From: an uncultured Candidatus Saccharibacteria bacterium
Lineage (GTDB): Bacteria > Patescibacteriota > Minisyncoccia > Sungbacterales > JACQCQ01
Direction: 5' to 3'
NCBI GenBank assembly: GCA_964494945.1
Contig: CAZBTX010000003.1
Coordinates: forward strand, 47,897 to 111,896
Length of the DNA stretch: 64,000 nt
Every line of letters begins with the position of its first letter. Position 1 is the first letter of the stretch. Shown one piece after another: positions 25,603-44,185 of the stretch. The position numbers and the translations under genes were made by a program. The notes under the pieces were generated by a model. It saw only the letters and a program-made list of their open reading frames with translations, searched no databases and was not told the DNA's origin.

Positions 25603-27255
25603 TTAGGCGTTCTTTTGCCCGGGCAACTTCCACCATACGGCTAAAACAATAAAAGCAAAAAACAGGAACCAATTCCGGTATCGTACTGCCGGAGTGATTA
25701 TATCATTCGTGTGTAACTCCGCCGTGATAACCCTTTCCGAAAGGTCAGGACTTTCCAGCACAATTTTTCCAAAAGGATCAAGCATGAACGACCGTTCCCC
25801 GCTTGAAACATAAGAGAGCGCCCGCCTCGTTCCTGCCGCATTTATACGCGCCATGGCGATATTTTGCGCATGCAACACCGGCGACCCCCTCAAAATCGCA
25901 TCGGATGCCGTATACATGAGAATCTCCGCGCCCGCAGCAACTGTTTTTATATTCAAATTCGGCGAAAGTATTTCCGAACAGGTTAAGAGGCCTATTTTCC
26001 CAAAAGGAGACGAAAACACGCCAGCCCCGCTCCCCGACTCATACCATCTTAATTGCCGGTTTCTTTCAAGCCACGCGCCGCCATCAATGACTTTAGCCAT
26101 CCATTGAATAGCGTACGGCAGATATTCGCCATAAGGCATCAAGAACTGCTTTTCATAGAGTCCGATGACACCGCGCTGGTTATCAAATACCGCGGTGGTA
26201 TTTCTAGGTTTGAGAGCGTTTGGAACATGTTCCCACTTCGTCAGTAATATTTGGCGCTTAACGGGAGATAGAAACTCACCTAATTTATCATGACGGGATT
26301 TCTCGTCGGTAAGCGGTATTTGTGGGAACAGAACGGCGCTTTCCGGCACGGCAATAATATCGGCGGGCGGGTCAAGGGCGGCTGTTTCCCGCATCAGGCG
26401 TTTGTAGGTTGCTTCCGCACGGGCGATATAACCGGGTTTGACCCATTCTTCGGGGAAAAATGCGGCTTGTACGAGCGCAATGCGAACCATACTCTTCGGT
26501 TCATAAAAACGTGTACCGATTAGGCGCCCCAGAAATGTAAGCGCGATGAATACGAGCAGCAACAGCGCGCTGAAGAAAAGAACTGGTCTTATTCGTCGCT
26601 CTAGGCGATGCTGAAAGAAATCACGGATTATAACGAAGATAAACATATTCGGCAGGGCAACCAAAAAGCTCAAAAAATACACGCCGCCGATGGCTGAAAA
26701 CTGACGGAGCGCGTCATTGTCGGCCAGTCCGTATCCCAGAAGGGCAAACGCCATATTGTCCCCGACAATCGTTCCTTCCCCGTATCCCAGCGGATGAAAT
26801 GAAAAAAGAAATGTCCGCAAATATTCAAGAAGCGTCCAAAGCAGGGCCAAAGAGACGGTGTCAAAAAGAGTGCCCCTTACAACGCGGCGCGCGAGAACAA
26901 GGAAAATACCGAACGCGATGGCGAAATAACCGACCGGCAGAAACCAGCCGAACACCGCAAGCCACACGCTTCCCCAATAACTGTTGATTCCTATCCATGT
27001 CAGCGGCACGGCATCAAAAAACCACCGAAGATATGTTCCTACTGCCGCGACTCCCGCCAGCCAACCAAGTAAAAACAGCTCCTTTCCACTTTTAGTCGGG
27101 AAAGTAAGTATCAGAAGAAACGGCACCAGGGAAATCCAATACATGCCGGGCGCGATTTTTGGAGGCAAAGAAAAAGCAATAAAAAAACCGGCGCCAACCG
27201 CATACAACCCGTGCCACCAATGACTACGGCAATATCGCCCAAATACCCTTTGCAT
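25603..27255 (-). CDS. lnt: Apolipoprotein N-acyltransferase
   Basis: N-terminal multi-TM region plus C-terminal carbon-nitrogen hydrolase domain with catalytic Glu/Lys/Cys context (…LLTCSEIL…). Confidence 0.75.
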   Translation of the reverse strand: MQRVFGRYCRSHWWHGLYAVGAGFFIAFSLPPKIAPGMYWISLVPFLLILTFPTKSGKELFLLGWLAGVAAVGTYLRWFFDAVPLTWIGINSYWGSVWLAVFGWFLPVGYFAIAFGIFLVLARRVVRGTLFDTVSLALLWTLLEYLRTFLFSFHPLGYGEGTIVGDNMAFALLGYGLADNDALRQFSAIGGVYFLSFLVALPNMFIFVIIRDFFQHRLERRIRPVLFFSALLLLVFIALTFLGRLIGTRFYEPKSMVRIALVQAAFFPEEWVKPGYIARAEATYKRLMRETAALDPPADIIAVPESAVLFPQIPLTDEKSRHDKLGEFLSPVKRQILLTKWEHVPNALKPRNTTAVFDNQRGVIGLYEKQFLMPYGEYLPYAIQWMAKVIDGGAWLERNRQLRWYESGSGAGVFSSPFGKIGLLTCSEILSPNLNIKTVAAGAEILMYTASDAILRGSPVLHAQNIAMARINAAGTRRALSYVSSGERSFMLDPFGKIVLESPDLSERVITAELHTNDIITPAVRYRNWFLFFAFIVLAVWWKLPGQKNA

Positions 27256-27261: not shown

Positions 27262-28062
27262 TTAGAACGATCTATTTGCGTTTTCTGCTTGTCTCAAATT
27301 AGTTGTGATAGCGTCTTTAAACGCCCCAAGCCCGTTTTCGGCGGCCTCGGGATTATTCCCGGGATATGCTGCTTGCCAGTCAGCCAACGACAACCCATCA
27401 GCCAATTTTTGGGCGCTCTCAAAGGCCTTTTTTGCTTCTTCAAATTTGCCTAAATTAAGTTCGGCTACGCCGAGGCCGTTCCAAAGCCACGGATTTTTTT
27501 CGGCATTCAGTGCTTCTTTAAAGGCCGAGTTTAAAATTTTTTCCGCTTTTTCGTATTTTGCTTCTTTTTGCAAAATCCAGGCCAGGTCATTGTATCCCGC
27601 CCATTCCTTGGGCGCCCATTCTGTGAATCGGCGGAAGTCATCTTCGGCGGCCGCCAGATTGCCACCATATCCGTAAATCAGCCCGCGGACGTACAAAGAG
27701 CGTAGATTTTCCGGATTAGCTTCCAGTTCTTTGTTGATTTCCGCAAGCGCTTCAGCATATTTGCCTTTTACAAAAATAATTCGCGCCAGCTGGTAATGCC
27801 CCCATAGGATTTTAGGGTCGGCTACCACGGCCTTCCGGTACGCCCGCTCGGCTTTCGCCAAATCGTAAGCCCCGCCGTTAAAATAATAGTTGCCGAGTTG
27901 CATAGAAAGTCCGGCGTCTCGTCCCACAAGAGCCAGCGCGGCGGCAGGGGAGCGGTATTTTTGCCAGGCGGCATCCGCCAAAGAATCCCGCCAAAATAAA
28001 AAACCTAGGAGAAAGATCAAACAAACGGCGACAATAATTTCCCAGTGCTTCGCAAAGAACAT
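27262..28062 (-). CDS. Membrane-anchored TPR-repeat protein
   Basis: N-terminal TM helix then tetratricopeptide-like repeats (A/L/Y-rich 34-aa periodicity). Confidence 0.6.
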   Translation of the reverse strand: MFFAKHWEIIVAVCLIFLLGFLFWRDSLADAAWQKYRSPAAALALVGRDAGLSMQLGNYYFNGGAYDLAKAERAYRKAVVADPKILWGHYQLARIIFVKGKYAEALAEINKELEANPENLRSLYVRGLIYGYGGNLAAAEDDFRRFTEWAPKEWAGYNDLAWILQKEAKYEKAEKILNSAFKEALNAEKNPWLWNGLGVAELNLGKFEEAKKAFESAQKLADGLSLADWQAAYPGNNPEAAENGLGAFKDAITTNLRQAENANRSF

Positions 28063-28065: not shown

Positions 28066-28350
28066 TTAGTGTGGTTTTATTCTCTTCTGCAAAAGGCCGT
28101 GTTCTGATTGTTTTTTTCTTCCTCTATTTCCGTCTTGCTCTATAGACCACTCCAGTAAGTTGATGTACCAATTTAGGTATCCAACAAGCGCTTGGGCTTG
28201 GCAATTCGCGCAGTCAAAACAAAGCTCGGTACACACTCTTTTCCCGAATCCCTTTTGAACGTCCTTTTTTAATTGTTTTGCGATTCGCAAAGAAACTTTA
28301 TCGTTCATGCACGTTTTTATCATTCCCAATAACACTTCGGACATTCCCAA
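28066..28350 (-). CDS. Small Cys-rich protein, 94 aa (CTELCFDCANCQ cluster); start uncertain
   Basis: ORF overlapping the preceding ORF by 31 nt in another frame. Confidence 0.35.
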   Translation of the reverse strand: MGMSEVLLGMIKTCMNDKVSLRIAKQLKKDVQKGFGKRVCTELCFDCANCQAQALVGYLNWYINLLEWSIEQDGNRGRKKQSEHGLLQKRIKPH

Positions 28351-28595
28351 TACTCGACATGAGCATAGGATTTCGGATCCTTTTTCAAAACATCAACAAC
28401 CATGTCGCCTATACGGCGCTTAACAATGCCGGCTCGATAGGCCTTGTCCCACTCTTTTTTCTTAAATAGCGGAATCTTGCCGAAATAGTGTCCGCCCCGA
28501 TATCGGCCACCCCGATACTGTATAAGCCGGATGTTTCTCGCGCATATCGAACATTTCTTGAAGGATCGTTTCTTGATTTCTTTATGCACCACCAT
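28320..28595 (-). CDS. Small zinc-ribbon protein, 91 aa (CSIC ... CPKC, with an RGGRYRGG segment)
   Basis: Two CxxC pairs at N- and C-terminal ends. Confidence 0.4.
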   Translation of the reverse strand: MVVHKEIKKRSFKKCSICARNIRLIQYRGGRYRGGHYFGKIPLFKKKEWDKAYRAGIVKRRIGDMVVDVLKKDPKSYAHVEYWECPKCYWE

Positions 28596-28613
28596 GGAGA
28601 AGATAGCACTGAC

Positions 28614-28874
28614 TCAAGAATACAAGTTGCTATGCGTATCGATAATGGCAAATTCAACAGAGGTATCGTTCAATGGTTTATAGAAAGCACGGAAATCGCC
28701 GGTTACATTGATACTGCGAAAATCTCGCCACTCACCATGGAGGGCATGATTATTAAGTAATGGGTTAAAAGGATTGGTAATAAATAGCCGGAGCCTCTTT
28801 TTGAACTTATCTCTTACCGACTTCGGAAGTTTTTGATAATTTTTATCAAAATTCTTGTGAAAGAGAACTTTCAT
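28614..28874 (-). CDS. Type II toxin RelE/YafQ family
   Basis: 86 aa; '...NNHALHGEWRDFRSINVTGDFRAFYK...' matches the YafQ/RelE core; overlaps the antitoxin by ATGA. Confidence 0.75.
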   Translation of the reverse strand: MKVLFHKNFDKNYQKLPKSVRDKFKKRLRLFITNPFNPLLNNHALHGEWRDFRSINVTGDFRAFYKPLNDTSVEFAIIDTHSNLYS

Positions 28875-29146
28875 AGCCGATCAAGGTGCCGGAGCGCTTC
28901 TTCATAGGCAAACGGCCTGCGGGCATTCTTGTCGCTTTTGATATCCTTAATAATTTGCCGGAGCAGTTTTTGAGTACGCTTGTTCGGCATCGGAGGCACC
29001 GAGAAAATAACCCGCTTTTCACGTATAAATTCTTTAAGATACGCGTTGATGATAGTTCCCAGTGGAAGTCCAAGCTCCCGTGCCGCCATCTGCGCTTCTT
29101 GTTTGAGCTTTTTATCAGTTTTTACATTAAGCAACGTTTTTTCCAT
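28871..29146 (-). CDS. Type II antitoxin RelB/DinJ family
   Basis: 91 aa; ribbon-helix-helix N-terminus '...LNVKTDKKLKQEAQMAARELGLPLGTIINAYL'. Confidence 0.75.
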   Translation of the reverse strand: MEKTLLNVKTDKKLKQEAQMAARELGLPLGTIINAYLKEFIREKRVIFSVPPMPNKRTQKLLRQIIKDIKSDKNARRPFAYEEALRHLDRL

Positions 29147-29252
29147 ATATCCATAGTATATACTTTAGTTGTATATATCGTCAATTCTCCAATAAATAAA
29201 TTAGCGCCAACTGATAATGCCCTCAAAGAATCTTAGGGGCAATTATATTTCT

Positions 29253-29405
29253 TTATTTCCCCACAGCCAGCCCGTAAACTACGGATTCCGTAACTCCATC
29301 AATATCAACCAGCGTCTCCAAGTTATGGTCCCGCGTGCCGCCCAGAGCACAGCATTTAAGACCAAGCGCCTCCGAAACCAAATATATGTTTTGGCCACGC
29401 GATAA
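29253..29405 (-). pseudogene. Remnant of a SagB-type (nitroreductase-fold) dehydrogenase paralog: ...GQNIYLVSEALGLKCCALGGTRDHNLETLVDIDGVTESVVYGLAVGK*
   Basis: Hand-translated 50-codon segment aligns with the C-terminus of the 32248..32967 product (GQNIYLVGTALGLGVLAIGRMTDHAAVERELDLDAEEETVFYQLAIGYPKK); in-frame stops lie upstream. Confidence 0.6.
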
Positions 29406-29526
29406 CGACAAGGTTGTCCTTATAACTAATTATTGCCAGTAGTGCGATTATTCCAATACTGGCAAAGATATACCCCTGTCTCATCAACAGGTTTTTGTTA
29501 CACTGCTCTGCTATGCGGGATCCCCG

Positions 29527-30645
29527 CTATAAATCCTGTAGTGCTTTCCCAAACTCTTCTCTGTTTCGGAATACGAAGATGTTCTTTTCCTTGAACTCGG
29601 CCGTGACCGCAAGGTAGCGCTCAAGATATTGTTTGGCCATTGCTTTATCGCGCTTTGCCATGTACGTGCGAGCAAGGGTTTCCAGACAGATTGATTTAGG
29701 GTAGTCAAATTGAGTAACTCCAGCTATTTTCCCACTAGCAGTTGTAATTGCTTGACTATAATCTCCAGTATAGTAATATATTTTCCCCAAAATACATTGG
29801 TGAATATTTTTCTTACTAAAGGTTTTTTCAGCGAGTGCGTCGGCTTTCTGGTACTCATCAAGGGCTTGTTTCAAGTTTTTTTCTGCTGCAAATTGTTGAG
29901 CCAAAATGAGGTGAGCGATTTGGACATCGACATTGGCATTGTCTCCGGCGGCACTAATGGCGGCCGAGGCGAAGGATTTGGTACTTGAAGTATCACTCGA
30001 ATACGAAAATAATCTGGCGGTGAGCACCTGCAGGCGGTAAACGCTCTTCTCATAGATAGTTCTGCCATTGACGCTCAGGTTCGCCGTATTTAAGCCGAAA
30101 ACGGGCAAGAGTATTTGCAGGGCCTCTGCGGGTTTGTTAGAGCGGTCAAAGTAATCTAGCGCCACGTAATACCTCGCAACGAATGAAGTGTCCGGTGCCA
30201 ATTCTATAAGTTCTAGATATTGAGCTGTCGCCTCGGGGTATTGCTTTAGCATCCAATGCGCAAATCCAGCGTCATTCAGGGCCTCTTTAAAATTGTTATA
30301 ATTTTTATTTTTTAAATTAAGAGCTATAGCCGCCTCGTACTTGTCTACAGCTTCCGGATAGTTCGCATTGGGGTATAGTAACGGGCCACCGACATCGGGT
30401 TTACCCAAAGCCAACTTCCCAAGATAGAAGTGGGGTTCCGGATTTTTTGAATCGAATTTTAAGGCTTTCTCAAAAAGCGGTTTGGCCTTAGTGATATTTC
30501 CACCTTGGAATTCCTGAATACCGCGTTTAAAATAGTAGCCAGCAATGGCTTTGGAACCATACAAAAAACCGCCAACGGCAAGCAAAAGCACGATAATGCC
30601 GGAGATAACCCAAAACGGCTTTAAGTTGCGCGGCGTCTCATCCAT
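29527..30645 (-). CDS. Membrane-anchored TPR-repeat protein
   Basis: N-terminal TM then TPR-like repeats. Confidence 0.6.
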   Translation of the reverse strand: MDETPRNLKPFWVISGIIVLLLAVGGFLYGSKAIAGYYFKRGIQEFQGGNITKAKPLFEKALKFDSKNPEPHFYLGKLALGKPDVGGPLLYPNANYPEAVDKYEAAIALNLKNKNYNNFKEALNDAGFAHWMLKQYPEATAQYLELIELAPDTSFVARYYVALDYFDRSNKPAEALQILLPVFGLNTANLSVNGRTIYEKSVYRLQVLTARLFSYSSDTSSTKSFASAAISAAGDNANVDVQIAHLILAQQFAAEKNLKQALDEYQKADALAEKTFSKKNIHQCILGKIYYYTGDYSQAITTASGKIAGVTQFDYPKSICLETLARTYMAKRDKAMAKQYLERYLAVTAEFKEKNIFVFRNREEFGKALQDL

Positions 30646-30648
30646 GAA

Positions 30649-32151
30649 TTACTTTGTGTATTTCTCAAGAGGTATAAGTGATTTAAGGCGCGTTCTTGCT
30701 TCTTCCGAAATTCGTTCCTCCCAATTTCCGGCGAGCGCCTTAGATTCTTTTCTAATCGCCGAATAAAAACCGAATGATTTCATAAGATAAGTTTCCCCTT
30801 CTTGCTGGCCGCAGTTCAATTCGGGACTTCTGAACTCAACATCTACAGTATCGCCGGGAATGAGATGGAGGTATTCGGCAGCTGAAGTTTCCGAAAGCGT
30901 TGACGTCACATCCCCAGCTCTAGAACTCTCCGCATGTTCGACCGTCAATTCCTCAATTCGATACCGGCGCTCTTCCATGTCTTGGAGCGCGCCGAGGAAT
31001 CCTAAAGCATGGCGCTTGGTAAAATCTGCGCGAATTTCCAAAGAGCCGTCTTCGCGAACCGCCCCTTTAGGAAGTGTGATAATTTCAGCTCCGTAGTTCC
31101 AGGCCCGGGGCTTATTAATCGCGGCCTGCTTCCACTTTCCCGAAGGGTCTTTGTAGGAAAAGTAGATTGATTTGCCACCGCACATTGACCCACCATCACC
31201 TCCACCCCCACCCCCACCTCCACCGCCACTCCCAACTATAAAAGGAGTAAACGCTAAAGCCCCCGAAAGTCCTTTTCTGCCCAAGAAAAAATAGACCGTG
31301 GCAATAGCGAGAATCGCCATACGCGCAGCCGTGTTGGTAAATATTTGAGGGATAAATTCTCGCATACTCCGCTTACTCACTCTTTTCCCCGGCATCCAAT
31401 CGCGGAATACCGATTTCACAAAAAGATTAACCGCTTTTTCTGTAGAAAGGCTTTGAAAAGTGAATTCAATGAAGTCCCCCCTTTGCAGGATAGACGCGCC
31501 GCTGGGGTTTGATTCCCAAAGCGCTTGTTTATCGCCGTAACGACCGCTGATTTCTAAAGTGCCGTTTAAAAGCACGTTTTGGGGTAGCTGTAGATTCTTT
31601 TCGGTTGAGGATTTATCCAGTACCCATATTTTCTCAAACGAGGAATCAACAAAAACCTCTGATGTTTTAGGATGGATTACGCGAATTAGTTTTACCCAAT
31701 CAACAAATGATTCTTCAAGTTCATTCTCTTGAAGCTGTATTATAAGTTTCCCATCTTTTTTCCGTGGTGGTGCGCTAAATTTTAACAAATCAGGAATAGT
31801 GAAACGACGCTTCAGTGATTGAAACGATTTTATGTTCGCGTAATCTGTAATAAAATATTCCGGCCTCCCGCCAAGGAAATCGTTCTCTATCTTAAATTTC
31901 GTCCCGTCAAAGTAGGCCACATGCGGGCACCCAAAGCCGCAGTCACCGCCAGAGCAGTTGCTACAACTGGGCGCAGGCGCATCCGCCTTGGCTTTGTCTG
32001 AGCCGAAGAGGTTTGCATCCTTATTTCCGTTAGATGGAGAGTTACTCTTGATCAGGTTGGAAACATTGATGAATACCCAACCCAGGAATAAAAGAAGAAT
32101 TAAAAACAGGGCTTTGAAAATAAACAAAGACGAATTGATAATTTTTTTCAT
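30649..32151 (-). CDS. Unusual 500-aa membrane protein: N-terminal signal-anchor, Cys cluster CSNCSGGDCGFGCPH, internal TM, and a poly-Gly/Cys segment GSGGGGGGGGGGDGGSMCGG
   Basis: Features read from the translation; no family recognised; lies immediately downstream of the YcaO/dehydrogenase pair. Confidence 0.6.
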   Translation of the reverse strand: MKKIINSSLFIFKALFLILLLFLGWVFINVSNLIKSNSPSNGNKDANLFGSDKAKADAPAPSCSNCSGGDCGFGCPHVAYFDGTKFKIENDFLGGRPEYFITDYANIKSFQSLKRRFTIPDLLKFSAPPRKKDGKLIIQLQENELEESFVDWVKLIRVIHPKTSEVFVDSSFEKIWVLDKSSTEKNLQLPQNVLLNGTLEISGRYGDKQALWESNPSGASILQRGDFIEFTFQSLSTEKAVNLFVKSVFRDWMPGKRVSKRSMREFIPQIFTNTAARMAILAIATVYFFLGRKGLSGALAFTPFIVGSGGGGGGGGGGDGGSMCGGKSIYFSYKDPSGKWKQAAINKPRAWNYGAEIITLPKGAVREDGSLEIRADFTKRHALGFLGALQDMEERRYRIEELTVEHAESSRAGDVTSTLSETSAAEYLHLIPGDTVDVEFRSPELNCGQQEGETYLMKSFGFYSAIRKESKALAGNWEERISEEARTRLKSLIPLEKYTK

Positions 32152-32247
32152 AAATGCTTCTTAGTGATGCGTTGGAATTGTACTTACTATAAACCTAGTT
32201 ATTTTTTCATCAACACTAAGTTTATTCACAGTAATTCTATCATTTTT

Positions 32248-32967
32248 CTATTTTTTAGGGTAGCCGATGGCTAACTGGTAAAATACGGTCTCTTCTTCCG
32301 CATCTAAATCAAGTTCGCGCTCAACCGCGGCGTGATCAGTCATCCTGCCAATAGCTAGAACTCCCAATCCCAAAGCCGTCCCCACAAGGTAAATATTCTG
32401 CCCGATATGACCGCCCTCAAGGATTCCAAGTTTATATCCAAGATTGCCGTATTTTCCCGCGGTTCGTTCGCCGACAAACGACAGCAAAATCAGCGCCGGA
32501 GCTGTTTTGTAGAAATCATAAGTCGTGGCTTGTCGAATTTTCTCAGCGTCTGCGCCGTGAATCAGTTCTAGCGAATGTTCCAGAAAGTTGTAGTGATACG
32601 CGCCCTTCTTAACACCTTTTCCATTAAATAACGCGACATAAATTTCAACTGGGAATCTTGCGCCGCCGGAGGGATAGGGCCGGCGGAACGAATTTCCCGT
32701 TGCGCTTAATTTGTGGATTGGGCCCGCGCTCCAAAAAAGCAATCTGCCCAATACGTTTTGAGATATGGGTTGGTTAGAAAAATTTCTTTCCGTTCTCCTC
32801 TTCAATAAGGCCTCGGCCAAGTTTAAACTGGGGAATGATTTGAATTTGGACAAAAAAATGCGCGGCGAGCGCGGATATTCTTTAAAGGAAATATTTTTCC
32901 ATTCCGTCGCTTCAGGGTCAATAGCCGGCCTGTCTTTGTAAAAAAAATCAAAAAATGGATCTGGCAT
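32248..32967 (-). CDS. SagB-type dehydrogenase (nitroreductase superfamily; McbC-like oxidase of azoline-forming RiPP pathways)
   Basis: Nitroreductase-fold motifs and the '...RPYPSGGARFP...' signature of SagB/ThcOx dehydrogenases. Confidence 0.7.
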   Translation of the reverse strand: MPDPFFDFFYKDRPAIDPEATEWKNISFKEYPRSPRIFLSKFKSFPSLNLAEALLKRRTERNFSNQPISQNVLGRLLFWSAGPIHKLSATGNSFRRPYPSGGARFPVEIYVALFNGKGVKKGAYHYNFLEHSLELIHGADAEKIRQATTYDFYKTAPALILLSFVGERTAGKYGNLGYKLGILEGGHIGQNIYLVGTALGLGVLAIGRMTDHAAVERELDLDAEEETVFYQLAIGYPKK

Positions 32968-32990
32968 AAGACTTCCGGTGTTACCTTTTA

Positions 32991-34481
32991 TTATAAAAAT
33001 GGGTGAGGTATGACATTAAACTCCTCTTCTTTTTTAGGTCGTTGAAATATCCCCATCTTTATCGGCGCTTCATGAAGGCGCTGCGAGCCGAGACACTTAA
33101 AATGTTCGTTAAGATACAACGGGTAAAGACCGGCAACCAGCGCCATTACCACACGGAGTCCGGCTTGACTTGCGAGCGAACCGGTAATATCGGTAATGTA
33201 AGCACTAAGTCCATAATTAGTCAGGATCTTCTTAAGTTCTTTCAGTTTAGCGGCATCGTCTTTCCCCTCATGGCCATTTCTCTCCAGTATCTCAGTTTGC
33301 CCCAAAAACATAAATTCGGCGTCCCGGTCGCGTCTTTCGTCGCACCAATAAATTCTGCGCTCGTTAAGGTTTTCTATAGCCGGCGCTTTTTGCTCAACTC
33401 GTTTAATTTCTTCCACGGTTGTTGTTGAAAGAAATCCCGCGCGAAAGCCGTCAGTCAGCGCGGCAACCAGCGCTTTCTCTTTATCAAGATCACAACGCGG
33501 GGATAGATAAAGTCGCGGCAACCCCGGCGCATGAGGCCTAATCACCGCCATAAATACCGGCACCCTTAGATCAGTCGTGATATCAAGCAGGGATACGTTG
33601 ATAGCATATTTTTCATAAAGGTTTAAAAGCGCGTTGATTTCCAGATGGCCGAGTTTGCGGAGGGCTGTCAATTCTACTTGGGGAGGAGAAATCTGATTAA
33701 GCCAGTGAACCATCAGAGCGTCGCGTTCTATGACCTCGCATAGGGCGTGATATGCGGCCCCGTCCCAGGAAATTCCGGCGGCCCCGCCGTTGGAAATGGT
33801 CTGGCGGATACGTGGCTCTTCCGATAAAAAATCATATTTGATATGAGCCAGCTGTGCTGGGACCAGATATATCCCATTTCCTTCCAGAGAAACCGATTTT
33901 ACCCAGCGGAAGGTGGAATCACTTTTAATTCGATGCGGCGCATATTCCGGCCTTTCGAGCTGGGCGGAGGAAAAATGATTGAACAGCCGCGGGTCAATGG
34001 CTTTATTGTGACCGAGCTTTTCAAAAGAACCGGTGACAAATCTTTGATAATCCGGGGTAGCAAGCGTATGCCATTCAATAAGTTCGGCAACCGCCTTAGT
34101 AGCCGCAATTTCCGGATCCAGAGCGTAACCGGAAGCATGAACTTCGTTGCTTGAAAGAATGGAGAAAGCCGGGATATGCGGCCATCCGGCTATTGGTTGA
34201 GGAAAAAAGATTTTCTCAATCACTCCTTTGCGGGCAAGTTCACGCAGTATGCGCTGGAAACGAGCGGGAATATTATCCCACGGGGACAAGGAGCTTTTAA
34301 CATATATTTCTCCGCCCATAAGCACTTCTAGGGAAAGGAAGAAATTTTTGGTCAAGCGTTCAAGAAAATTATTGGAGGATTGAGGCCGACCAAACGGCCG
34401 TTTGGACCAAACAGCCACTCTTTCTTTCGCGTAATCAGCTAGCCGCTTGCCGCGAATGAATTGGATTTTGTTTTCGGTCAT
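32991..34481 (-). CDS. YcaO-domain protein (ATP-dependent cyclodehydratase/amide-activating enzyme) with a roughly 110-aa N-terminal extension
   Basis: YcaO core ('HASGYALDPEIAATKAVAELIEWH...', 'GGAAGISWDGAAYHALCEVIERD'); 23 bp upstream of the SagB-type gene. Confidence 0.7.
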   Translation of the reverse strand: MTENKIQFIRGKRLADYAKERVAVWSKRPFGRPQSSNNFLERLTKNFFLSLEVLMGGEIYVKSSLSPWDNIPARFQRILRELARKGVIEKIFFPQPIAGWPHIPAFSILSSNEVHASGYALDPEIAATKAVAELIEWHTLATPDYQRFVTGSFEKLGHNKAIDPRLFNHFSSAQLERPEYAPHRIKSDSTFRWVKSVSLEGNGIYLVPAQLAHIKYDFLSEEPRIRQTISNGGAAGISWDGAAYHALCEVIERDALMVHWLNQISPPQVELTALRKLGHLEINALLNLYEKYAINVSLLDITTDLRVPVFMAVIRPHAPGLPRLYLSPRCDLDKEKALVAALTDGFRAGFLSTTTVEEIKRVEQKAPAIENLNERRIYWCDERRDRDAEFMFLGQTEILERNGHEGKDDAAKLKELKKILTNYGLSAYITDITGSLASQAGLRVVMALVAGLYPLYLNEHFKCLGSQRLHEAPIKMGIFQRPKKEEEFNVIPHPFL

Positions 34482-34742
34482 ATATCTTAGTGGATGCTGG
34501 CTTTTAACAGAAAAAGTTGGTTAGTTACAAGATACGAATCATTTATTTTAAGTTAATACACCCGTAGCTTACTGCGGATAATGCCCGCCGGTAAGCATCC
34601 TCAATTAAAAGAATTCAATCTTCAGCGGTGCTTCTTCTACGTAAGAATAATATTTAGTGATTTCTTGTCTTTTACGGCATCGGATAGTACGGTGGGGATA
34701 CAGAAACCATTTTTACCCTATCTCTTTGGACGAAAAAACACA

Positions 34743-35600
34743 ATGCAAAAAGTTCTCATTATAGGCGGCTCGCGTTTTATCGGCCCATTTTTGGTGGAGG
34801 AGTTGCTTTTCAGGGGTCATGAAGTCACTGTGTTTAATCGGGGACGGATTCAAAAACAATATCCCGACAGAGTGCGATTTATACCAGGAGACCGAAATGA
34901 CGGCTTTGGCGTCAAAGAGCGGTTTGATGCGGTAATAGATATGTGCGCTATGTATGGCGCACATACGGCAAAAGCCATTAACGAATTAGTTTTTGATTTT
35001 TTTGTCAATTTGGGGACAGCCGCGGTTTATGAGAAATCCGAACTTTTTCCCCTTACCGAAGAATCTAATTTGGGTAATTGGTCCTTGTGGGGCGACTACA
35101 ATCGCGGCAAGGTAGAGTGTGAACGTGTTCTCGCAAAAAGCGGAGTCAGCTACGCTTCTCTCCGTCCGGTTTACATACTCGGACCCAGGAACTATTTACT
35201 GCGCGAAGCATTTATTTATGCAAAACTAAAGCGTGGCGAGCCGTTGATTCTTCCCGGCAACGGTCAAGCGCTTTTACAATTCATTCATGCGCGTGAGGTC
35301 GCGGCGTCACTTGCCCTTATTATGGAAAAACGAATTGAGGGAGTTTTTAACTGTGCTGGCGATAAAATAGTTACATTAAGAGGTTTAATTGAGGAGATGG
35401 CTGGAATTGTTCACAAAGAACCGCACATTGAATATAATCCCAAGGCCGATGGCTGGAGATTTAACGCACGGGAGTTTCCATTTGCTAATGAAAATTTTGT
35501 TGTCGCTAATGATAAAATAAAGGGTCTGGGCGCGCGCTTCGCGCCCATTTCCGAGTTCCTCCGAAGCGATTATGATAACTATTATGAAAAAATCATCTAG
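34743..35600 (+). CDS. NAD-dependent epimerase/dehydratase family protein
   Basis: Rossmann GGSRFIG motif and YxxxK-type catalytic context; start at ATG 34743. Confidence 0.7.
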   Translation: MQKVLIIGGSRFIGPFLVEELLFRGHEVTVFNRGRIQKQYPDRVRFIPGDRNDGFGVKERFDAVIDMCAMYGAHTAKAINELVFDFFVNLGTAAVYEKSELFPLTEESNLGNWSLWGDYNRGKVECERVLAKSGVSYASLRPVYILGPRNYLLREAFIYAKLKRGEPLILPGNGQALLQFIHAREVAASLALIMEKRIEGVFNCAGDKIVTLRGLIEEMAGIVHKEPHIEYNPKADGWRFNAREFPFANENFVVANDKIKGLGARFAPISEFLRSDYDNYYEKII

Positions 35601-38854: not shown

Positions 38855-39946
38855 TTACGATGATTCAAAGAACCTTTTAATTAGGTTGATTGTTCGCATA
38901 GTTTCTTTTTCCGGGATCTTGCTATCGGTAGGCAGAACTAAAGATTCTTCGGAGATTTTTTCGGCAATCGGGAAATCGCCCCTTTTGTATCCTAGATGTT
39001 CAAACGCGCCGAAATACGGCAGAAGAACTCCGTACTCTATGCGCGCCGTAACCCCACCTCTCTTCAAAAATCTATGCAGTTCACCTCTTTCCTTAGTGAG
39101 AACGACGTATCTGTAGCCGTTGATAAAATAATCGGATTGATGCGCGATTTCGGGGAGCACTAGTTCGTCCATTCCGCGAAGCAATTTCGCATACAAGAAA
39201 TAATTTTTTCGCCATGCATAAACGGTTTTATCCAAATTCTTAAGATTTTCACTCAATATCGCAGCGTGAAATTGGCTTAAACGGCTCGCTACACCAATTA
39301 TGGGATGACGGGTACTTATGTCCCCAGGCCTCGCGCCGTACATCTTCATAAAAAAAATTTTTTCTGCCAGCACGGCGATATTGGTAGCTATCGCGCCGCC
39401 ATCGCCGTAACTGGAAAGAATTTTGGTGGGATTAAAACTGAAGCAGGCCAAGTCGCTGTAATATCCGGGCGATTTCCCTTTATATTTTGAGCCGATGGCT
39501 TGCGCGGCATCTTCAATCAGAAATAGATTATGCTTTTTCGCTATGGCCGAAATTCTTTCCATATCGGCCATCCTGCCGTTTAGATGGACAGCAATTATAG
39601 CTTTCGTTTTTGAAGTAATCGCTTGCTCAATTTTTGTCGGGTCAATATTTAAACTTTCTTTTTCAATATCCACAAAAACCGGTTTCGCGTTAATCCAGGC
39701 AACCGCGCCAGCAGTTGAGAAAAAACTAAGCGCGGGCACAATAACTTCGTCGCCGGGGCCTATCCCTAGCGCTTTTAAGGCAATAATAAGAGCATCCGTC
39801 CCGCTCGCCACACTTATGACGCTATTGATGTCGAGATAATGCGCCAATTTTCTTTCAAAATCAAAGGTTGTACCCCGTGTGACGTTCCCATTCTTAAGAG
39901 TTTTAAAAAAGGACAGCAGGATTTTAATTTTAGAGAGGAGATTCAT
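38855..39946 (-). CDS. DegT/DnrJ/EryC1/StrS-family PLP-dependent sugar aminotransferase
   Basis: Family-typical length and motifs (…SGTDALIIALKALGIGPGDEVIVPALSF…, Lys-containing PLP region). Confidence 0.75.
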   Translation of the reverse strand: MNLLSKIKILLSFFKTLKNGNVTRGTTFDFERKLAHYLDINSVISVASGTDALIIALKALGIGPGDEVIVPALSFFSTAGAVAWINAKPVFVDIEKESLNIDPTKIEQAITSKTKAIIAVHLNGRMADMERISAIAKKHNLFLIEDAAQAIGSKYKGKSPGYYSDLACFSFNPTKILSSYGDGGAIATNIAVLAEKIFFMKMYGARPGDISTRHPIIGVASRLSQFHAAILSENLKNLDKTVYAWRKNYFLYAKLLRGMDELVLPEIAHQSDYFINGYRYVVLTKERGELHRFLKRGGVTARIEYGVLLPYFGAFEHLGYKRGDFPIAEKISEESLVLPTDSKIPEKETMRTINLIKRFFESS

Positions 39947-41247: not shown

Positions 41248-41297
41248 TATGTATTGCTAGCGAGAGGGCTTATATCTATGCCTCGCCAGATATACTA

Positions 41298-42569: not shown

Positions 42570-42615
42570 GTTTATTTTTCTAAAACCAGGTGCGCTTACT
42601 GGGTTATTACTGAGA

Positions 42616-43020
42616 TTACTTTATTTGGCGCACTTCACCAATGTGCCAAGAGCCGTTTTTGATCAAAGTAATGATGCGGTTATCTATTTTTTTGTTCGTA
42701 TTTATTATAGATGATGACAGTTGTAGTGAATAATATACCTTAGCTAAGTTCTGCCCATAAATGCGAATTAATACATCTTTATATATTGAAACCCCAATAA
42801 CATTAATGTGCTTTTGTATATTTTCTATGAATTGCTCTCTATTAATAAACCTACCATTTATTTCTATAGATGCTTTTAGAGAATAAAACTCTTTAAGTTT
42901 CTCCCAGTTCCTCGTTTTTATCGCGCTCTGTAGTGTAGTTAATAAATTGGCGATTTCTTTTTCCGGGCGAGTCACGGGCTTTTCTAAATAATAGATAGCT
43001 GTGTGCATATTTGTTAACAT
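42616..43020 (-). CDS. Hypothetical 134-aa protein (NTF2/SnoaL-like?), low-GC
   Basis: ORF only; weak fold guess. Confidence 0.4.
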   Translation of the reverse strand: MLTNMHTAIYYLEKPVTRPEKEIANLLTTLQSAIKTRNWEKLKEFYSLKASIEINGRFINREQFIENIQKHINVIGVSIYKDVLIRIYGQNLAKVYYSLQLSSSIINTNKKIDNRIITLIKNGSWHIGEVRQIK

Positions 43021-43026
43021 GAAGAT

Positions 43027-43707: not shown

Positions 43708-44185
43708 ATATTGACCAATGTATTTATTGAACGCCCTTACTTACTTTAATTAATAATAGACTGCGTTTCCCTGTGCGTATAAGAAATCAAAATAACCAAT
43801 CTCTTAAATCATGACCCGCTGGCTTAATTAATTCGGTATGCATCGTTGAATCTTCAGATAACTGCAGTGAACTTACTTAATTGTATTCAGCCTCTTTAGG
43901 GATTGATATCCTCGGCCAGGGAAGCTTATAGATAGTATAACCCCCGCACACTTCTCGTGCGGGGTCTGTGCTTGATACCGGGGGTTACATTTGAGGATTT
44001 ACCCCCCGTAGAGAAAGAAATCCCAGTTGTGCTTCTTCAACCCAAACGCTACTTTTTGAGTGTTTAGCCATCTGAAATAGGCGTTAAGAAAATAATATTA
44101 GTTTTATCCATTTGTAATTTGCGAGCATCTTTTAGTTAAAATGAGATAAAGATTAGAAAGATTAGTAAAACTATTAAGATCAAGA

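What the first reader, a model, noticed from the sequence alone, without database searches (positions are those of the whole stretch)
29253..34481. YcaO + SagB-type dehydrogenase pair next to a Cys/poly-Gly membrane protein, with no evident precursor peptide and a decayed dehydrogenase paralog nearby
On the minus strand the order is:
- YcaO-domain protein, 32991-34481, with an N-terminal extension of about 110 aa.
- SagB-type dehydrogenase 23 bp downstream, 32248-32967.
- A 500-aa membrane protein with a CSNCSGGDCGFGCPH cluster and a GSGGGGGGGGGGDGGSMCGG segment, 30649-32151.
- A TPR protein.
- A 50-codon pseudogene fragment of a second SagB-type gene, 29253-29405.
- A RelB/RelE pair.

No small Cys/Ser/Thr-rich ORF with a leader lies beside the YcaO gene on either strand. 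I scanned 34482-34742 by hand. In this region the only E1-like/adenylate-forming genes are the CapK-like ligases (39943-42569), about 5 kb away in the polysaccharide cluster.

Either the precursor is elsewhere, or this pair modifies a protein substrate. The adjacent Gly/Cys-rich membrane protein is a conceivable target for azoline or thioamide installation. That would be an unusual YcaO system for this lineage.
Basis: partly seen in the sequence, partly recalled or inferred. Interest (0 to 1): 0.65.

Follow-up and report, generated by a model that had tools for sequence, protein, structure and literature searches.

The report
Heterocycle-forming enzymes paired with membrane protein
In this tiny-genome (CPR) bacterium, an enzyme pair that normally turns cysteines of small antibiotic peptides into thiazole rings sits next to a 500-residue membrane protein with cysteine/glycine-rich tethers, and comparison with about 30 related genomes suggests, without proving it, that these tethers are the enzymes' target.

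Summary
On the minus strand lie a TOMM-type YcaO, a SagB-type dehydrogenase, a 500-aa membrane protein ("X500"), two TPR proteins, a 52-codon SagB remnant and a RelBE pair. No small precursor gene is present.

The window comes from a Candidatus Sungbacteria (CPR) genome. YcaO plus nitroreductase pairs in CPR are already published as predicted "LAP" clusters.

What appears new is the partner:
- In all 19 distinct assessable loci of this YcaO clade, an X500 gene is adjacent, in three different gene arrangements.
- These loci have no small precursor and no leader peptidase. More distant relatives have both.
- X500–TPR–TPR also occurs without YcaO (9 loci, at least 5 independent losses). Those X500s lack extra Cys in the first tether (0/9 versus 11/18, p=0.003 uncorrected). 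Six sister contrasts give only p≈0.1.
- The sister YcaO clade carries 83–133-aa membrane-anchored proteins in the same place, with the same layout: TM helix, A-x-A-D-x-P motif, Gly/Ser/Cys tract.

Weaknesses:
- One of two blind predictions failed.
- Homology of the short forms to X500 is not significant.
- Membrane topology is ambiguous.

Best reading (confidence about 0.5): azol(in)e installation in the tethers of a membrane protein. This is a new variant of a known kind.

The parts
32991..34481 (-). YcaO cyclodehydratase (496 aa), TOMM/SagD type, with an N-terminal region of about 92-116 aa that standard YcaO models do not cover
   Evidence: Pfam YcaO E=2e-51 and TIGR03604 at 225.9 bits (cutoff 219.25). 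The AF2 model has pLDDT 90.8. The best solved relatives are LynD, TruD and MusD. E133/E136, E249/E252/R253 and the C-terminal N-x-x-P-H-P are invariant in 26 relatives.
32248..32967 (-). SagB-type FMN dehydrogenase (239 aa), the azoline-to-azole oxidase partner
   Evidence: TIGR03605 at 110.2 bits (cutoff 78.4) and Pfam Nitroreductase E=3e-18. It starts 23 bp after the YcaO stop. 'GKYGNLGY' is conserved in relatives.
30649..32151 (-). X500: 500-aa membrane protein and proposed substrate. It consists of TM helix 1, tether 1, beta-sandwich domain 1, hydrophobic helices, tether 2, beta-sandwich domain 2.
   Evidence: No Pfam or NCBIfam hit. In the AF2 model, residues 77-250 and 329-466 are mostly above pLDDT 90, and residues 36-74 and 299-325 are below 50. 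No PDB fold match at E<=1e-3. The family has 1,065 representative clusters.
31978..32010 (-). Leader-like junction motif LFGSDKAKADA (residues 48-58). The family consensus is F-G-x-D-x-A-x-A-D-x-P.
   Evidence: A56 is nearly invariant and A54/D57 are conserved. A.A[DEGTN] is present in 26/29 family members. The same A-x-A-D-x-P junction occurs in the short forms of L071, L081, L098 and L054.
31927..31977 (-). Tether 1 ('seg1'), PAPSCSNCSGGDCGFGC (residues 59-75): proposed core for heterocyclisation. It ends at the anchor Cys75 of CPHVAYFDG.
   Evidence: The segment is hypervariable in length and composition. Extra Cys occurs in 11/18 YcaO+ loci and 0/9 YcaO-minus loci. It is disordered in the model.
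31171..31230 (-). Tether 2 ('seg2'), SGGGGGGGGGGDGGSMCGGK (residues 308-327): second Gly/Cys tract, between the internal hydrophobic helices and domain 2.
   Evidence: Relatives carry CGCSCAC, CGCGCEC, SSSSSSSCAC or DCGTGPDCGGGPGACGNDQC here. Seg2 of L008 and P0151 retains AHAD[SV]P.
29527..30645 (-). TPR1: membrane-anchored TPR protein (372 aa), always directly after X500
   Evidence: Multiple Pfam TPR families. It is syntenic in nearly every locus that holds a full X500, the exception being L016, where TPR1 was not detected.
29253..29411 (-). C-terminal remnant (52 codons) of a second SagB-type gene from a different clade
   Evidence: TIGR03605 at 38.8 bits, profile positions 128-173 of 173. 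It is 68% identical to the L071 SagB, 64% to L098 and 51% to the resident SagB.
28614..29146 (-). RelB-like antitoxin (28871-29146) and RelE/YafQ-like toxin (28614-28874), inserted between TPR1 and TPR2
   Evidence: This junction also holds HicAB in L001 and HicAB plus a RelE-like pair in L012.
28066..28595 (-). Two small Cys-containing ORFs: 91 aa with CxxC...CxxC, and 94 aa (80 aa as called by NCBI) with CTELCFDCANC. They belong to the inserted cassette and are not precursors.
   Evidence: No family hits. The 94-aa ORF is 76% identical to an ORF that follows a RelE-like gene in L012.
27262..28062 (-). TPR2: second membrane-anchored TPR protein (266 aa), the last conserved gene of the module
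   Evidence: Pfam TPR families. It is 36-61% identical in nearly all X500 loci. TPR2-like genes (30-33% identity) also occur in the short-form loci L054 and L093.
34581..35600 (+). NAD-dependent epimerase, divergent neighbour that marks the edge of the glycan/teichoic-acid-like cluster. The depositor's start is at about 34743.
   Evidence: Pfam Epimerase. In YcaO-minus loci it directly abuts X500.

Best explanation
The YcaO (an ATP-dependent cyclodehydratase) and the SagB-type flavin dehydrogenase act on the neighbouring 500-aa membrane protein X500 rather than on a small peptide.

X500 carries two disordered Gly/Ser/Cys-rich tethers. Each follows a hydrophobic helix and precedes a beta-sandwich domain. 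The N-terminal module consists of a TM helix, a spacer and an F-G-x-D-x-A-x-A-D-x-P motif. I propose that this module plays the part of a leader and that tether 1 (PAPSCSNCSGGDCGFGC) is the core. Tether 2 (G10-DGGSMCGG) may be a second core. The YcaO would phosphorylate the backbone amide and cyclise Cys (possibly also Ser/Thr) to azolines, and SagB would oxidise them to azoles. The result would be a rigid, protease-resistant and possibly metal-binding stalk on a cell-envelope protein that works with two TPR proteins beside a glycan biosynthesis cluster.

Shown here:
- the enzyme families and their intact catalytic motifs;
- the linkage of the genes;
- the absence of a small precursor and of a leader peptidase;
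- the disorder and composition of the tethers;
- the covariation of tether composition with YcaO presence;
- the short-form analogues in the sister clade.

Inferred only:
- that X500 is the substrate;
- which residues are modified;
- how the leader is recognised;
- what the modification does.
For: 1. **Enzymes.** TIGR03604 and TIGR03605 score above their cutoffs. The Mg/ATP glutamates and the C-terminal P-H-P motif are invariant. The closest solved structures are the azoline-forming heterocyclases LynD, TruD and MusD.

2. **Linkage.** X500 is adjacent to the YcaO in 16 distinct close-clade loci and 3 distant ones (YcaO identity 26-50%). The adjacency survives three arrangements: SagB flipped upstream (L007, L035), X500 divergent from the YcaO (L036), and extra genes inserted (L010, L052).

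3. **No alternative substrate in the cluster.** Intergenic gaps in these clusters are 23-144 bp, and no small precursor or peptidase is present. More distant CPR YcaO-SagB pairs do have a Cys-rich 63-87-aa precursor. L044 and L097 also have an M16 peptidase, and L097 has both.

4. **Asymmetric dependence.** X500-TPR1-TPR2 exists without YcaO/SagB in 9 loci. These are scattered over the X500 tree, which implies at least 5 losses.

5. **Covariation.** Extra Cys in tether 1 occurs in 11/18 YcaO+ loci and 0/9 YcaO-minus loci (Fisher p=0.003). The Cys+Ser+Thr content of both tethers differs with Mann-Whitney p=0.0008.

6. **Short forms.** In the sister YcaO clade the position of X500 is occupied by proteins of 83-133 aa with a TM helix, an A-x-A-D-x-P motif and a Gly/Ser/Cys tract (L071, L081, L093, L098; also L054). 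This architecture is found in only 4 of 3,678 distinct small ORFs in all DNA held, and all 4 lie within 1.2 kb of a SagB gene.

7. **Wider family.** Distant X500 relatives carry unmistakably TOMM-like tethers, for example GGDCSCSCSCGCG and TCACCESSCSDCCECG.

8. **Accessibility.** The tethers are disordered (pLDDT below 50), as RiPP cores are.

9. **Precedent.** YcaO enzymes acting on whole proteins are known for McrA and uL16 (PMC13063428).
Against: - **Blind test.** One of two predictions failed. P0126 has a CTCGCGG tract in tether 2 but no YcaO or SagB within 6 kb.
- **Non-independence.** The association is not phylogenetically corrected. As six sister-group contrasts it goes in the predicted direction 5 of 6 times (sign test about 0.1). 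The trees are simple NJ trees.
- **Weak cases.** Some YcaO+ X500s are poor in targets: L003 has PTTRTA|C and SMSSK|S, and L033 is similar. Some YcaO-minus X500s keep a poly-Gly run ending in Cys (L015).
- **Homology of the short forms is not significant.** An HMM of the X500 N-terminus scores L071 at E=1.9 and misses the others. hhalign gives nothing for L054. The ~370-aa neighbours match TPR1 at only 20% probability.
- **Topology is ambiguous.** If TM1 is N-in, tether 1 is extracytoplasmic and would have to be modified before insertion. Both flanks of TM1 carry 3-4 Lys.
- **No recognition element.** No RRE or E1-like partner was detected.
- **Alternative role for the Cys.** The recurrent CxxC spacing would also fit metal binding.
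- **Coverage.** Only 64 kb of the genome was searched for precursors.
Confidence: 0.5

Rival explanations
1. This is a conventional LAP/TOMM system whose small precursor peptide is encoded elsewhere in the genome. On this view the adjacency to X500 is inherited synteny in small, gene-order-conserved CPR genomes, and the Cys/Gly tracts of X500 are ordinary low-complexity linkers.
For: - Synteny around the cluster extends well beyond it in many relatives, from the epimerase and glycan genes upstream to ComF-like and ClpB genes downstream. Gene order is therefore broadly conserved in this group.
- Precursors encoded in trans are known for some RiPP systems (established knowledge).
- Poly-Gly and Cys tracts also occur in YcaO-minus X500s such as L015 and L108.
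- After collapsing to sister contrasts the covariation is only suggestive.
Against: - Adjacency survives local rearrangements that break other gene orders (L007, L035, L036, L104) and persists down to 26-31% YcaO identity in marine and other lineages (L008, L039, L052).
- No precursor-like ORF exists in the 64-kb window.
- The clusters have no leader peptidase or exporter, whereas classical CPR relatives keep a small precursor beside the YcaO, L044 and L097 keep an M16 peptidase, and L097 has both.
- The sister clade places a membrane-anchored Cys-rich short protein in the X500 slot.
Confidence: 0.22
2. The YcaO acts on X500 or on another neighbour, but performs chemistry other than azoline formation, such as thioamidation, amidine formation or ATP-dependent proteolysis. 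On this view the nitroreductase-fold protein has a different redox role.
For: - YcaO enzymes that act on whole proteins (McrA, uL16) install thioamides (PMC13063428).
- MusD, one of the top structural matches, was deposited under an entry title that reports YcaO-mediated ATP-dependent peptidase activity.
- In several relatives the SagB partner is fused to a HemK/PrmC-like glutamine methyltransferase. This is unusual for TOMM clusters.
Against: - No TfuA or sulfur-delivery gene lies within 10 kb in the window's locus or in the six related loci for which gene calls with Pfam annotation were available.
- The McrA-type model scores 59 bits against a cutoff of 365, while the SagD model passes its cutoff.
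- The dehydrogenase passes the SagB-family model and keeps the Lys-Tyr dipeptide.
- The tracts that covary are rich in Cys, Ser and Thr, the nucleophiles needed for azolines.
Confidence: 0.1
3. The pair is a decaying relic with no current function in this genome.
For: - The pair has been lost repeatedly, at least 5 times.
- The YcaO is split into two ORFs in L106.
- A SagB remnant lies nearby in the window.
Against: - Both window genes are intact and full length. All catalytic and C-terminal motifs are conserved across 26 relatives at 26-50% identity, which indicates purifying selection.
- The AF2 model is confident.
- The two genes are tightly spaced, 23 bp apart.
Confidence: 0.06

Closest known systems
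Microcin B17 synthetase (McbBCD) and its precursor McbA; TOMM/LAP systems in general
   Same: A YcaO cyclodehydratase is paired with an FMN dehydrogenase of the SagB/McbC family. The target tracts are rich in Gly, Ser and Cys, and a poly-Gly run precedes the Cys/Ser residues. From my own knowledge, the McbA core contains G10 followed by SCGG...CGGCSNGCSGG; the window has G10-DGGSMCGG and CSNCSGGDCGFGC. McbD is detected by the YcaO profile (E=1.5e-11).
   Different: - There is no E1-like scaffold or RRE protein (McbB equivalent).
- There is no small precursor, leader peptidase, exporter or immunity gene.
- The candidate substrate is a 500-aa membrane protein whose tracts are internal tethers rather than a C-terminal core.
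Cyanobactin heterocyclases LynD / TruD / PatD and MusD
   Same: These are the closest solved structures and sequences for the YcaO domain (E=4e-47 to 4e-42; Foldseek E about 1e-24, TM-score about 0.69 on the query). The C-terminal N-x-x-P-x-P-F motif is shared.
   Different: Those enzymes are about 780 aa and carry a fused N-terminal RRE plus E1-like domains of about 400 aa. The window's enzyme has only about 100 extra N-terminal residues, with no detectable RRE family.
Predicted CPR 'LAP' clusters (Sharrar et al. 2020, mBio, PMC7298704)
   Same: They come from the same radiation and contain the same enzyme pair. That paper reports 110 clusters in 93 CPR genomes, 51 of them Parcubacteria, and 89 clusters with a nitroreductase next to the YcaO.
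   Different: The published example has an 84-aa precursor and a peptidase. I found that layout in more distant loci, most completely in L097, and in part in L044 (peptidase) and L047 (precursor). In the window's clade the X500-TPR-TPR module takes the place of the precursor and peptidase. The paper does not mention a membrane-protein partner.
YcaO enzymes that modify whole proteins: McrA thioglycine (YcaO-TfuA) and E. coli YcaO acting on ribosomal protein uL16 (Rice et al. 2026, PMC13063428)
   Same: A YcaO acts on a folded or large protein, and there is no nearby small ORF.
   Different: Those enzymes install thioamides, have no dehydrogenase partner and belong to other YcaO clades. In the papers I could search, azol(in)e formation on a large protein is not described.
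NHLP/Nif11-type long, structured leader precursors recognised by azoline-forming YcaOs (Wakeel et al. 2025, PMC12455567)
   Same: An azoline-forming YcaO recognises an atypically long leader through protein-protein contacts.
   Different: Those precursors are soluble, about 100 aa, and have a C-terminal core. Here the leader-like part includes a TM helix, and the core is followed by about 425 further residues.

Membership tests
TOMM/LAP cyclodehydratase (YcaO, SagD family, TIGR03604) | YcaO domain that scores above the curated family cutoff | tested here: met
   TIGR03604 scores 225.9 bits against a cutoff of 219.25, a narrow margin. Pfam YcaO scores 175.6 bits against 25.7.
TOMM/LAP cyclodehydratase (YcaO, SagD family, TIGR03604) | Conserved acidic ATP/Mg2+-binding residues (ExxE and ExxER motifs) | tested here: met
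   E133, E136, E249, E252 and R253 are invariant in 26 relatives. Their assignment to ATP/Mg binding rests on established YcaO structures and was not measured here.
TOMM/LAP cyclodehydratase (YcaO, SagD family, TIGR03604) | Pro-rich C-terminal motif (PxPxP) typical of azoline-forming YcaOs | tested here: met
   The protein ends ...NVIPHPFL. N489, P492 and H493 are invariant and P494 is at least 90% conserved. The motif aligns with the TruD C-terminus NPTPMPF.
TOMM/LAP cyclodehydratase (YcaO, SagD family, TIGR03604) | E1-like/Ocin-ThiF partner or a fused RRE domain for leader binding | tested here: not met
   There is no ThiF, PqqD or RRE family hit in the YcaO or in any gene within 10 kb, in the window or in six annotated related loci. 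Whether the ~100-aa N-terminal region substitutes for it could not be tested.
TOMM/LAP biosynthetic gene cluster | FMN-dependent SagB/McbC-type dehydrogenase adjacent to the YcaO | tested here: met
   TIGR03605 scores 110.2 bits against 78.4. The gene lies 23 bp downstream.
TOMM/LAP biosynthetic gene cluster | Small precursor peptide gene (leader plus a Cys/Ser/Thr-rich core) in or near the cluster | tested here: not met
   None was found in the window or in the syntenic clusters, where the gaps are 23-144 bp. A leader-like module plus a Cys-rich tract exists only as the N-terminus of the 500-aa protein.
TOMM/LAP biosynthetic gene cluster | Leader peptidase and/or exporter | tested here: not met
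   None is present in the window or in close relatives. An M16 peptidase is present in the distant classical loci L044 and L097.
Thioamide-forming YcaO (YcaO-TfuA; McrA type, TIGR03266) | TfuA partner and membership of the McrA-type YcaO family | tested here: not met
   TIGR03266 scores 59 bits against a cutoff of 365. No TfuA is present in any annotated locus.
SagB-family azoline dehydrogenase | Nitroreductase fold with the conserved Lys-Tyr dipeptide near the flavin | tested here: met
   Pfam Nitroreductase E=3e-18. 'GKYGNLGY' is conserved in the three full-length relatives aligned. The functional role of the Lys-Tyr dipeptide is from the literature as I recall it and was not tested here.
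Type II toxin-antitoxin RelBE | Adjacent small antitoxin and RelE/ParE-fold toxin genes that pass the family cutoffs | tested here: inconclusive
   The toxin passes TIGR02385 (34.4 bits against 27.9). The antitoxin is below its cutoffs (TIGR02384 at 36.8 against 45.65; Pfam RelB at 19.4 against 22.4). The two genes overlap by 4 bp.

The most novel reading that the evidence does not exclude
RiPP-type azole chemistry has been taken over for the maturation of a structural protein. A dedicated YcaO/SagB clade would install thiazoles or oxazoles in the flexible tethers of a widespread CPR cell-envelope protein, and in short membrane-anchored relatives of its N-terminus. This would be the first azole-modified large or membrane protein, and a membrane-anchored class of azole peptides displayed on the cell rather than secreted as toxins.
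Probability: 0.4. Interest if true: 0.85.

Novelty: new variant of a known kind. Interest (0 to 1): 0.68.

Why it matters
Azol(in)e formation by YcaO enzymes is known only on small peptides destined to become antibiotics or toxins. YcaO action on whole proteins is known only as thioamidation, for McrA and uL16.

If this clade heterocyclises the tethers of a 500-aa envelope protein, three things follow:
- The substrate scope of TOMM chemistry extends to proteins.
- Part of the antiSMASH 'LAP' calls in CPR genomes are explained as protein maturation rather than antibiotic production.
- A chemically unusual surface structure is identified in ultra-small, host-dependent bacteria, which retain few ATP-costly accessory systems.

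The proposal is directly testable, because three genes can be co-expressed and the expected mass shift is diagnostic.

Tried and rejected
- **First look at the Cys/YcaO relationship.** With 16 loci it suggested no relationship. I revised this after segmenting the tethers properly and adding loci.
- **Blind prediction for P0126.** I predicted it would be YcaO+. That failed.
- **Homology of the short forms to X500.** The N-terminal HMM scores L071 at E=1.9 and misses the others. hhalign of the L054 93-aa and 388-aa proteins against X500 gives nothing. The ~370-aa neighbours match TPR1 at only 20% probability. I therefore claim shared architecture and a shared motif only.
- **The small ORFs 28066-28350 (CTELCFDCANC) and 28320-28595 (CxxC...CxxC) as precursors.** I rejected them. 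They travel with a RelE-like gene in L012 and are absent from the other clusters.
- **TPR proteins, Lnt and the AMP-binding-like genes as partners.** The TPR genes are conserved with X500 regardless of YcaO presence. Lnt is not conserved in relatives.
- **Promoter and terminator scans.** Counts are at chance level.
- **X500 search in viral contigs.** Nothing was found.
- **Literature.** Six full-text searches found the CPR LAP survey and the protein-thioamidation work, but nothing on a membrane-protein substrate. The library lacks most subscription-journal papers, so prior description cannot be excluded.

Full report
**1. What is in the window.**

The minus strand between 27.2 and 34.5 kb carries the following genes, in transcription order:
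- a 496-aa YcaO (32991-34481);
- 23 bp later, a 239-aa nitroreductase-fold protein (32248-32967);
- 96 bp later, a 500-aa protein I call X500 (30649-32151);
- 3 bp later, a 372-aa TPR protein, TPR1 (29527-30645);
- a 52-codon ORF (29253-29411);
- a RelB-like and a RelE-like gene (28871-29146 and 28614-28874);
- two small ORFs (28320-28595 and 28066-28350);
- a second TPR protein, TPR2 (27262-28062);
- an apolipoprotein N-acyltransferase (25603-27255).

Family assignments:
- The YcaO passes the NCBIfam model for TOMM cyclodehydratases (TIGR03604, 225.9 bits against a cutoff of 219.25).
- The nitroreductase passes the SagB-family model (TIGR03605, 110 bits against 78.4).
- The 52-codon ORF matches the last 46 positions of the same SagB model.
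- X500 matches nothing.

The stated Cys cluster and poly-Gly run are present, with Cys at positions 63, 66, 71, 75 and 324. No precursor-like small ORF lies next to the YcaO or anywhere else in the 64 kb.

**2. Source and prior knowledge.**

The YcaO is identical to a protein of a Candidatus Sungbacteria MAG, which belongs to the CPR/Parcubacteria. The depositor's gene calls agree with mine. Sharrar et al. 2020 (PMC7298704) already reported 110 antiSMASH 'LAP' clusters in 93 CPR genomes, 89 of them with a nitroreductase next to the YcaO. Their worked example has an 84-aa precursor and a peptidase. The enzyme pair in CPR is therefore not new by itself.

**3. The enzymes look functional and azoline-forming.**

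- In an alignment of 26 relatives at 26-50% identity, the two acidic motifs (E133/E136 and E249/E252/R253) and the C-terminal N-x-x-P-H-P motif are invariant.
- The AlphaFold model is confident, with pLDDT 90.8.
- The best solved relatives by sequence and by fold are the cyanobactin heterocyclases LynD and TruD, and MusD. The thioamide-forming archaeal YcaOs and E. coli YcaO follow at a distance.
- The McrA-type model scores 59 bits against a cutoff of 365.
- No TfuA, ThiF/E1-like or RRE family gene occurs within 10 kb here or in six annotated related loci.
- The region N-terminal to the Pfam YcaO match is conserved in the clade. I could not assign it to any family, so whether it recognises a leader remains open.

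**4. Gene neighbourhoods.**

I collected loci in three ways:
- by exact look-up of homologues;
- by an X500-based scan of GTDB species genomes;
- by a YcaO-based scan of metagenomes.

I then scored them with tblastn and HMMs. The results are as follows.
- **Close clade.** In the YcaO clade of the window (at least 32% identity), every locus long enough to judge has X500 next to the YcaO. That is 16 distinct loci.
- **Rearrangements.** The adjacency survives several arrangements. SagB is flipped to the other side of the YcaO in L007 and L035. X500 is divergent from the YcaO in L036. An unrelated gene is inserted in L010.
- **Distant lineages.** Three more distant lineages (L008, L039 and L052, at 26-31% identity) also have an X500-like gene after SagB.
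- **No room for a precursor.** Intergenic gaps are 23-144 bp, and none of these clusters has a peptidase or exporter.
- **Classical layout further out.** Still more distant CPR YcaO-SagB pairs have the classical layout. They encode a Cys-rich ORF of 63-87 aa next to the YcaO (for example L047, L050, L059, L064, L074, L079, L097, L103). An M16-family peptidase follows SagB in L044 and L097, and L097 has both.

**5. X500 does not need the YcaO.**

The X500-TPR1-TPR2 module, usually abutting the same divergent epimerase, occurs without YcaO and SagB in nine loci: L013, L014, L015, L016, L018, L105, L107, L108 and L109. On an NJ tree of X500 these nine are scattered among YcaO+ lineages, and the deepest branches are YcaO+. 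This implies at least five independent losses. In L106 the YcaO is split into two ORFs. The pattern 'enzyme always with X500, X500 not always with enzyme' is what one expects for an optional modifying enzyme and its substrate. Inherited synteny with repeated loss would also produce it.

**6. What X500 is.**

- **Model.** The family alignment and the AlphaFold model (pLDDT 75, pTM 0.68) show an N-terminal TM helix and a disordered tether (residues 36-74). A beta-sandwich domain follows (77-250), then two hydrophobic helices (273-305) and a second disordered tether (299-325). After these come a second beta-sandwich (329-466) and C-terminal helices.
- **Fold.** No PDB structure matches significantly. 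The weak hits are jelly-roll, CBM-like domains.
- **Tethers.** Both tethers are hypervariable in length and composition. They are bounded by conserved anchors: F-G-x-D-x-A-x-A-D-x-P before tether 1, [C/T]-P-[HF]-[VL]-A-Y-F-D-G after it, and [S/C]-[ILV]-x-F-S-Y after tether 2.
- **Internal duplication.** In L008 and P0151, tether 2 also carries A-H-A-D-[SV]-P. This suggests an internal duplication of a helix-motif-tether-domain unit.
- **Family size.** The family has 1,065 representative clusters at E<=1e-3.
- **Cys content across the family.** Among 89 members with a recognisable anchor, 42 have Cys in the 30 residues upstream. Examples include GGDCSCSCSCGCG, TCACCESSCSDCCECG and DCCGCECGSSSTDCGPGDCGCGSGGG, which look like TOMM cores. 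I could not obtain the genomic contexts of these members.

**7. Do the tethers track the enzymes?**

- **Revision.** My first comparison suggested that they do not. With proper segmentation and 27 distinct X500s of known context, the picture changed.
- **Cys in tether 1.** Extra Cys beyond the anchor occurs in 11 of 18 YcaO+ loci and in 0 of 9 YcaO-minus loci (Fisher p=0.003).
- **YcaO+ members without Cys in tether 1.** Most have multi-Cys or long Ser/Thr tracts in tether 2: CGCSCAC, NCCASC, SSSSSSSCAC, or the Ser/Thr-rich tracts of L007 and L035.
- **Overall composition.** The Cys+Ser+Thr content of both tethers differs with Mann-Whitney p=0.0008.
- **Not independent.** These tests ignore shared ancestry. 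Collapsed to six sister-group contrasts on the NJ tree, five go in the predicted direction (sign test about 0.1).
- **Blind test.** Before my last two context look-ups I wrote down predictions (note). P0143, with no extra Cys, was YcaO-minus as predicted. P0126, with CTCGCGG in tether 2, was predicted YcaO+ but has no YcaO or SagB within 6 kb.
- **The P0126 locus.** It instead has a radical-SAM/SPASM maturase directly after TPR1. Its best NCBIfam match is the thio(seleno)oxazole maturase SbtM, below cutoff. A BufB-like MNIO enzyme lies nearby, also below cutoff. This is intriguing because both enzyme types modify peptide Cys, but it is a post hoc observation and does not rescue the prediction.

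**8. Short membrane-anchored forms.**

- **Where they are.** Five loci have a long YcaO (about 512-541 aa) and no X500. In them the gene after SagB, or after the next gene, encodes a protein of 83-133 aa. Each has an N-terminal TM helix, a spacer, an A-x-A-D-x-P-type motif and then a Gly/Ser/Cys-rich tail. They are L071 (83 aa), L098 (89 aa), L081 (94 aa), L093 (133 aa) and L054 (93 aa).
- **Examples.** L093 reads ...QLFGDEISAGSTVYADSAGGTGGGGSNEGGGGTGSCCGEAGCDSGSTGTGCGCSGSG...GGGGGGGDGG.... L081 reads ...PFVPKAHADVPGGSGSVGGGGCQGGASSSCEGG....
- **Same gene order.** These genes are followed by a ~370-aa TM/helical protein. In L054 and L093 a TPR2-like protein also follows, which reproduces the window's gene order.
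- **Specificity.** A pattern search for this architecture over all 3,678 distinct small ORFs in the DNA I hold returns only four of these proteins and nothing else.
- **Phylogeny.** On a YcaO tree, all X500-linked YcaOs form one clade. Four of the five short-form YcaOs (L071, L081, L093, L098) form its sister clade. The classical-precursor YcaOs (about 415-460 aa) are separate.
- **Limits.** Global homology between the short forms and the X500 N-terminus is not significant. The ~370-aa proteins match TPR1 only weakly. I therefore claim a shared architecture, motif, position and enzyme lineage, not demonstrated homology.

**9. Interpretation.**

The most economical reading is that this YcaO/SagB lineage works on membrane-anchored substrates whose Gly/Ser/Cys tract follows a TM helix and an A-x-A-D-x-P junction. 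In the window's clade that substrate module would be the N-terminus of X500, and possibly also its internal repeat. The pair would then install azoles in the tethers of an envelope protein that functions with two TPR proteins beside a glycan or teichoic-acid-like gene cluster.

Open problems:
- how the leader is recognised without an RRE;
- membrane topology, because both flanks of TM1 carry 3-4 Lys, so tether 1 may be inside or outside;
- why some YcaO+ X500s, such as L003, have few candidate residues.

The main rival is a precursor encoded in trans, with the adjacency inherited. I give the substrate hypothesis about 0.5 and the in-trans rival about 0.2. The remainder is split between other chemistry and decay.

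**10. The other elements of the finding.**

- **SagB remnant.** It is 68% identical to the C-terminus of the L071 SagB, 64% to that of L098, and only 51% to the resident SagB. It is therefore a relic of a second SagB from the short-form clade and not a decayed duplicate of the resident gene. No more of it is recognisable.
- **Insertion site.** The remnant lies with the RelBE pair and the two small ORFs between TPR1 and TPR2. These two genes are contiguous in L003, L005 and L109. The same junction holds HicAB in L001, and HicAB plus a RelE-like pair in L012. The junction is a recurrent insertion site for toxin-antitoxin cassettes.
- **The 94-aa ORF with CTELCFDCANC.** It is conserved after the RelE-like gene of L012 (76% identity). 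It belongs to that cassette, not to the YcaO system.

**11. Novelty.**

- The enzymes, their chemistry and their presence in CPR are known.
- YcaO action on whole proteins is known for thioamidation only (PMC13063428).
- I found no description of an azoline-forming YcaO dedicated to a large membrane protein, or of membrane-anchored LAP-type precursors. No curated family covers X500 or the short forms.
- The literature library is incomplete, so earlier description cannot be ruled out.
- I class this as a new variant of a known kind, supported by comparative evidence only.

Noticed in passing
L001:9492-10994, L005:9492-10994, L010:7778-9283, L026 ~9515-11026, L028, L029; L107:1673-2368: In several relatives the SagB dehydrogenase is fused to an N-terminal HemK/PrmC-like protein-glutamine methyltransferase. 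That domain carries the NPPY/NPPYF motif, scores 168 bits on TIGR03534 (below its cutoff of 199) and passes hemK_fam. In L107 the same methyltransferase stands alone between the epimerase and X500, with no YcaO or SagB. Tether 2 of all five assessable methyltransferase-positive X500s contains a Gln, as G-x-Q in three (L001, L005, L107); so do 9 of 19 others. The window has no such gene. Whether this is the housekeeping PrmC or a tailoring enzyme for X500 is unknown.
   Followed up: partly
L108:8668-9762 (+), L108:11306-12211 (-), L108:12208-13473 (-): This is a YcaO-less X500 locus from a CPR-like contig. A radical-SAM/SPASM maturase replaces TPR2; its best hit is SbtM, the thio(seleno)oxazole maturase, at 141 bits and below cutoff. 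A BufB/HvfB-like MNIO enzyme (200 bits, below cutoff) lies next to an asparagine-synthase fusion. The X500 here has CTCGCGG in tether 2. This may be an alternative Cys-modifying system or an unrelated RiPP cluster.
   Followed up: partly
window 28066-29411; L001:13696-14176; L012:3135-5477: The TPR1|TPR2 junction is a recurrent insertion site for toxin-antitoxin cassettes. It holds RelBE in the window, HicAB in L001, and HicAB plus a RelE-like pair in L012. A small Cys-containing ORF (window 28066-28350) is 76% identical to an ORF that follows the RelE-like gene in L012. It may be a third component of that cassette.
   Followed up: partly
L106:3848-5227: The YcaO of this otherwise intact YcaO-SagB-X500 locus is called as two ORFs of 201 and 238 aa. 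This is either an assembly frameshift or a loss of the enzyme caught in progress.
   Followed up: no
L008:10348-11921: The X500-like gene of this TARA marine contig is called as 132 aa plus 389 aa. The frames switch inside the Gly-rich tract (CDSCGNCGGGSGSGGGNDFGGG / GGGNSSTPFL). This suggests slippage or a sequencing error in the low-complexity region. In the window the poly-Gly run is encoded by mixed GGN codons (31171-31230).
   Followed up: partly
L020:4109-5749: A Candidatus Hodarchaeota (Asgard archaeon) contig gives a weak match to the X500 profile (57 bits, both beta-domain regions). The X500 beta-sandwich architecture may extend beyond CPR bacteria.
   Followed up: no
window 25603-27255: An apolipoprotein N-acyltransferase (LNT_N plus CN_hydrolase) directly follows TPR2. 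This is notable in a CPR genome. It is not conserved at this position in relatives. Both X500 tethers usually end in a small residue followed by Cys ([GAS]-C), which resembles a lipobox, although there is no adjacent signal-peptide h-region for tether 1.
   Followed up: partly
L003:6556-6993, L005:3429-3887, L007:1489-1935, L010:5673-6119, L106:2437-2874: A 145-152-aa ORF recurs in the glycan gene cluster upstream of the YcaO/X500 module, next to the epimerase in L003, L010 and L106. The L010 copy has a lipoprotein-like signal sequence. I did not establish whether the copies are homologous or what they do.
   Followed up: no
window 1-2000 and 40001-44000: Base composition is uneven. GC is 0.61 in the first 2 kb and 0.37-0.40 around 40-44 kb, which covers the AMP-binding-like, SDR and neighbouring genes. 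Elsewhere it is about 0.45-0.52. This may indicate horizontally acquired segments in the glycan cluster.
   Followed up: no
window 34581-34742: The longest ORF of the epimerase starts at 34581. The depositor's call is 285 aa, starting at about 34743, and relatives are 273-300 aa. The YcaO-epimerase intergenic region is therefore probably about 260 bp rather than 99 bp. It holds the divergent promoters, and I found no conserved small ORF in it.
   Followed up: partly
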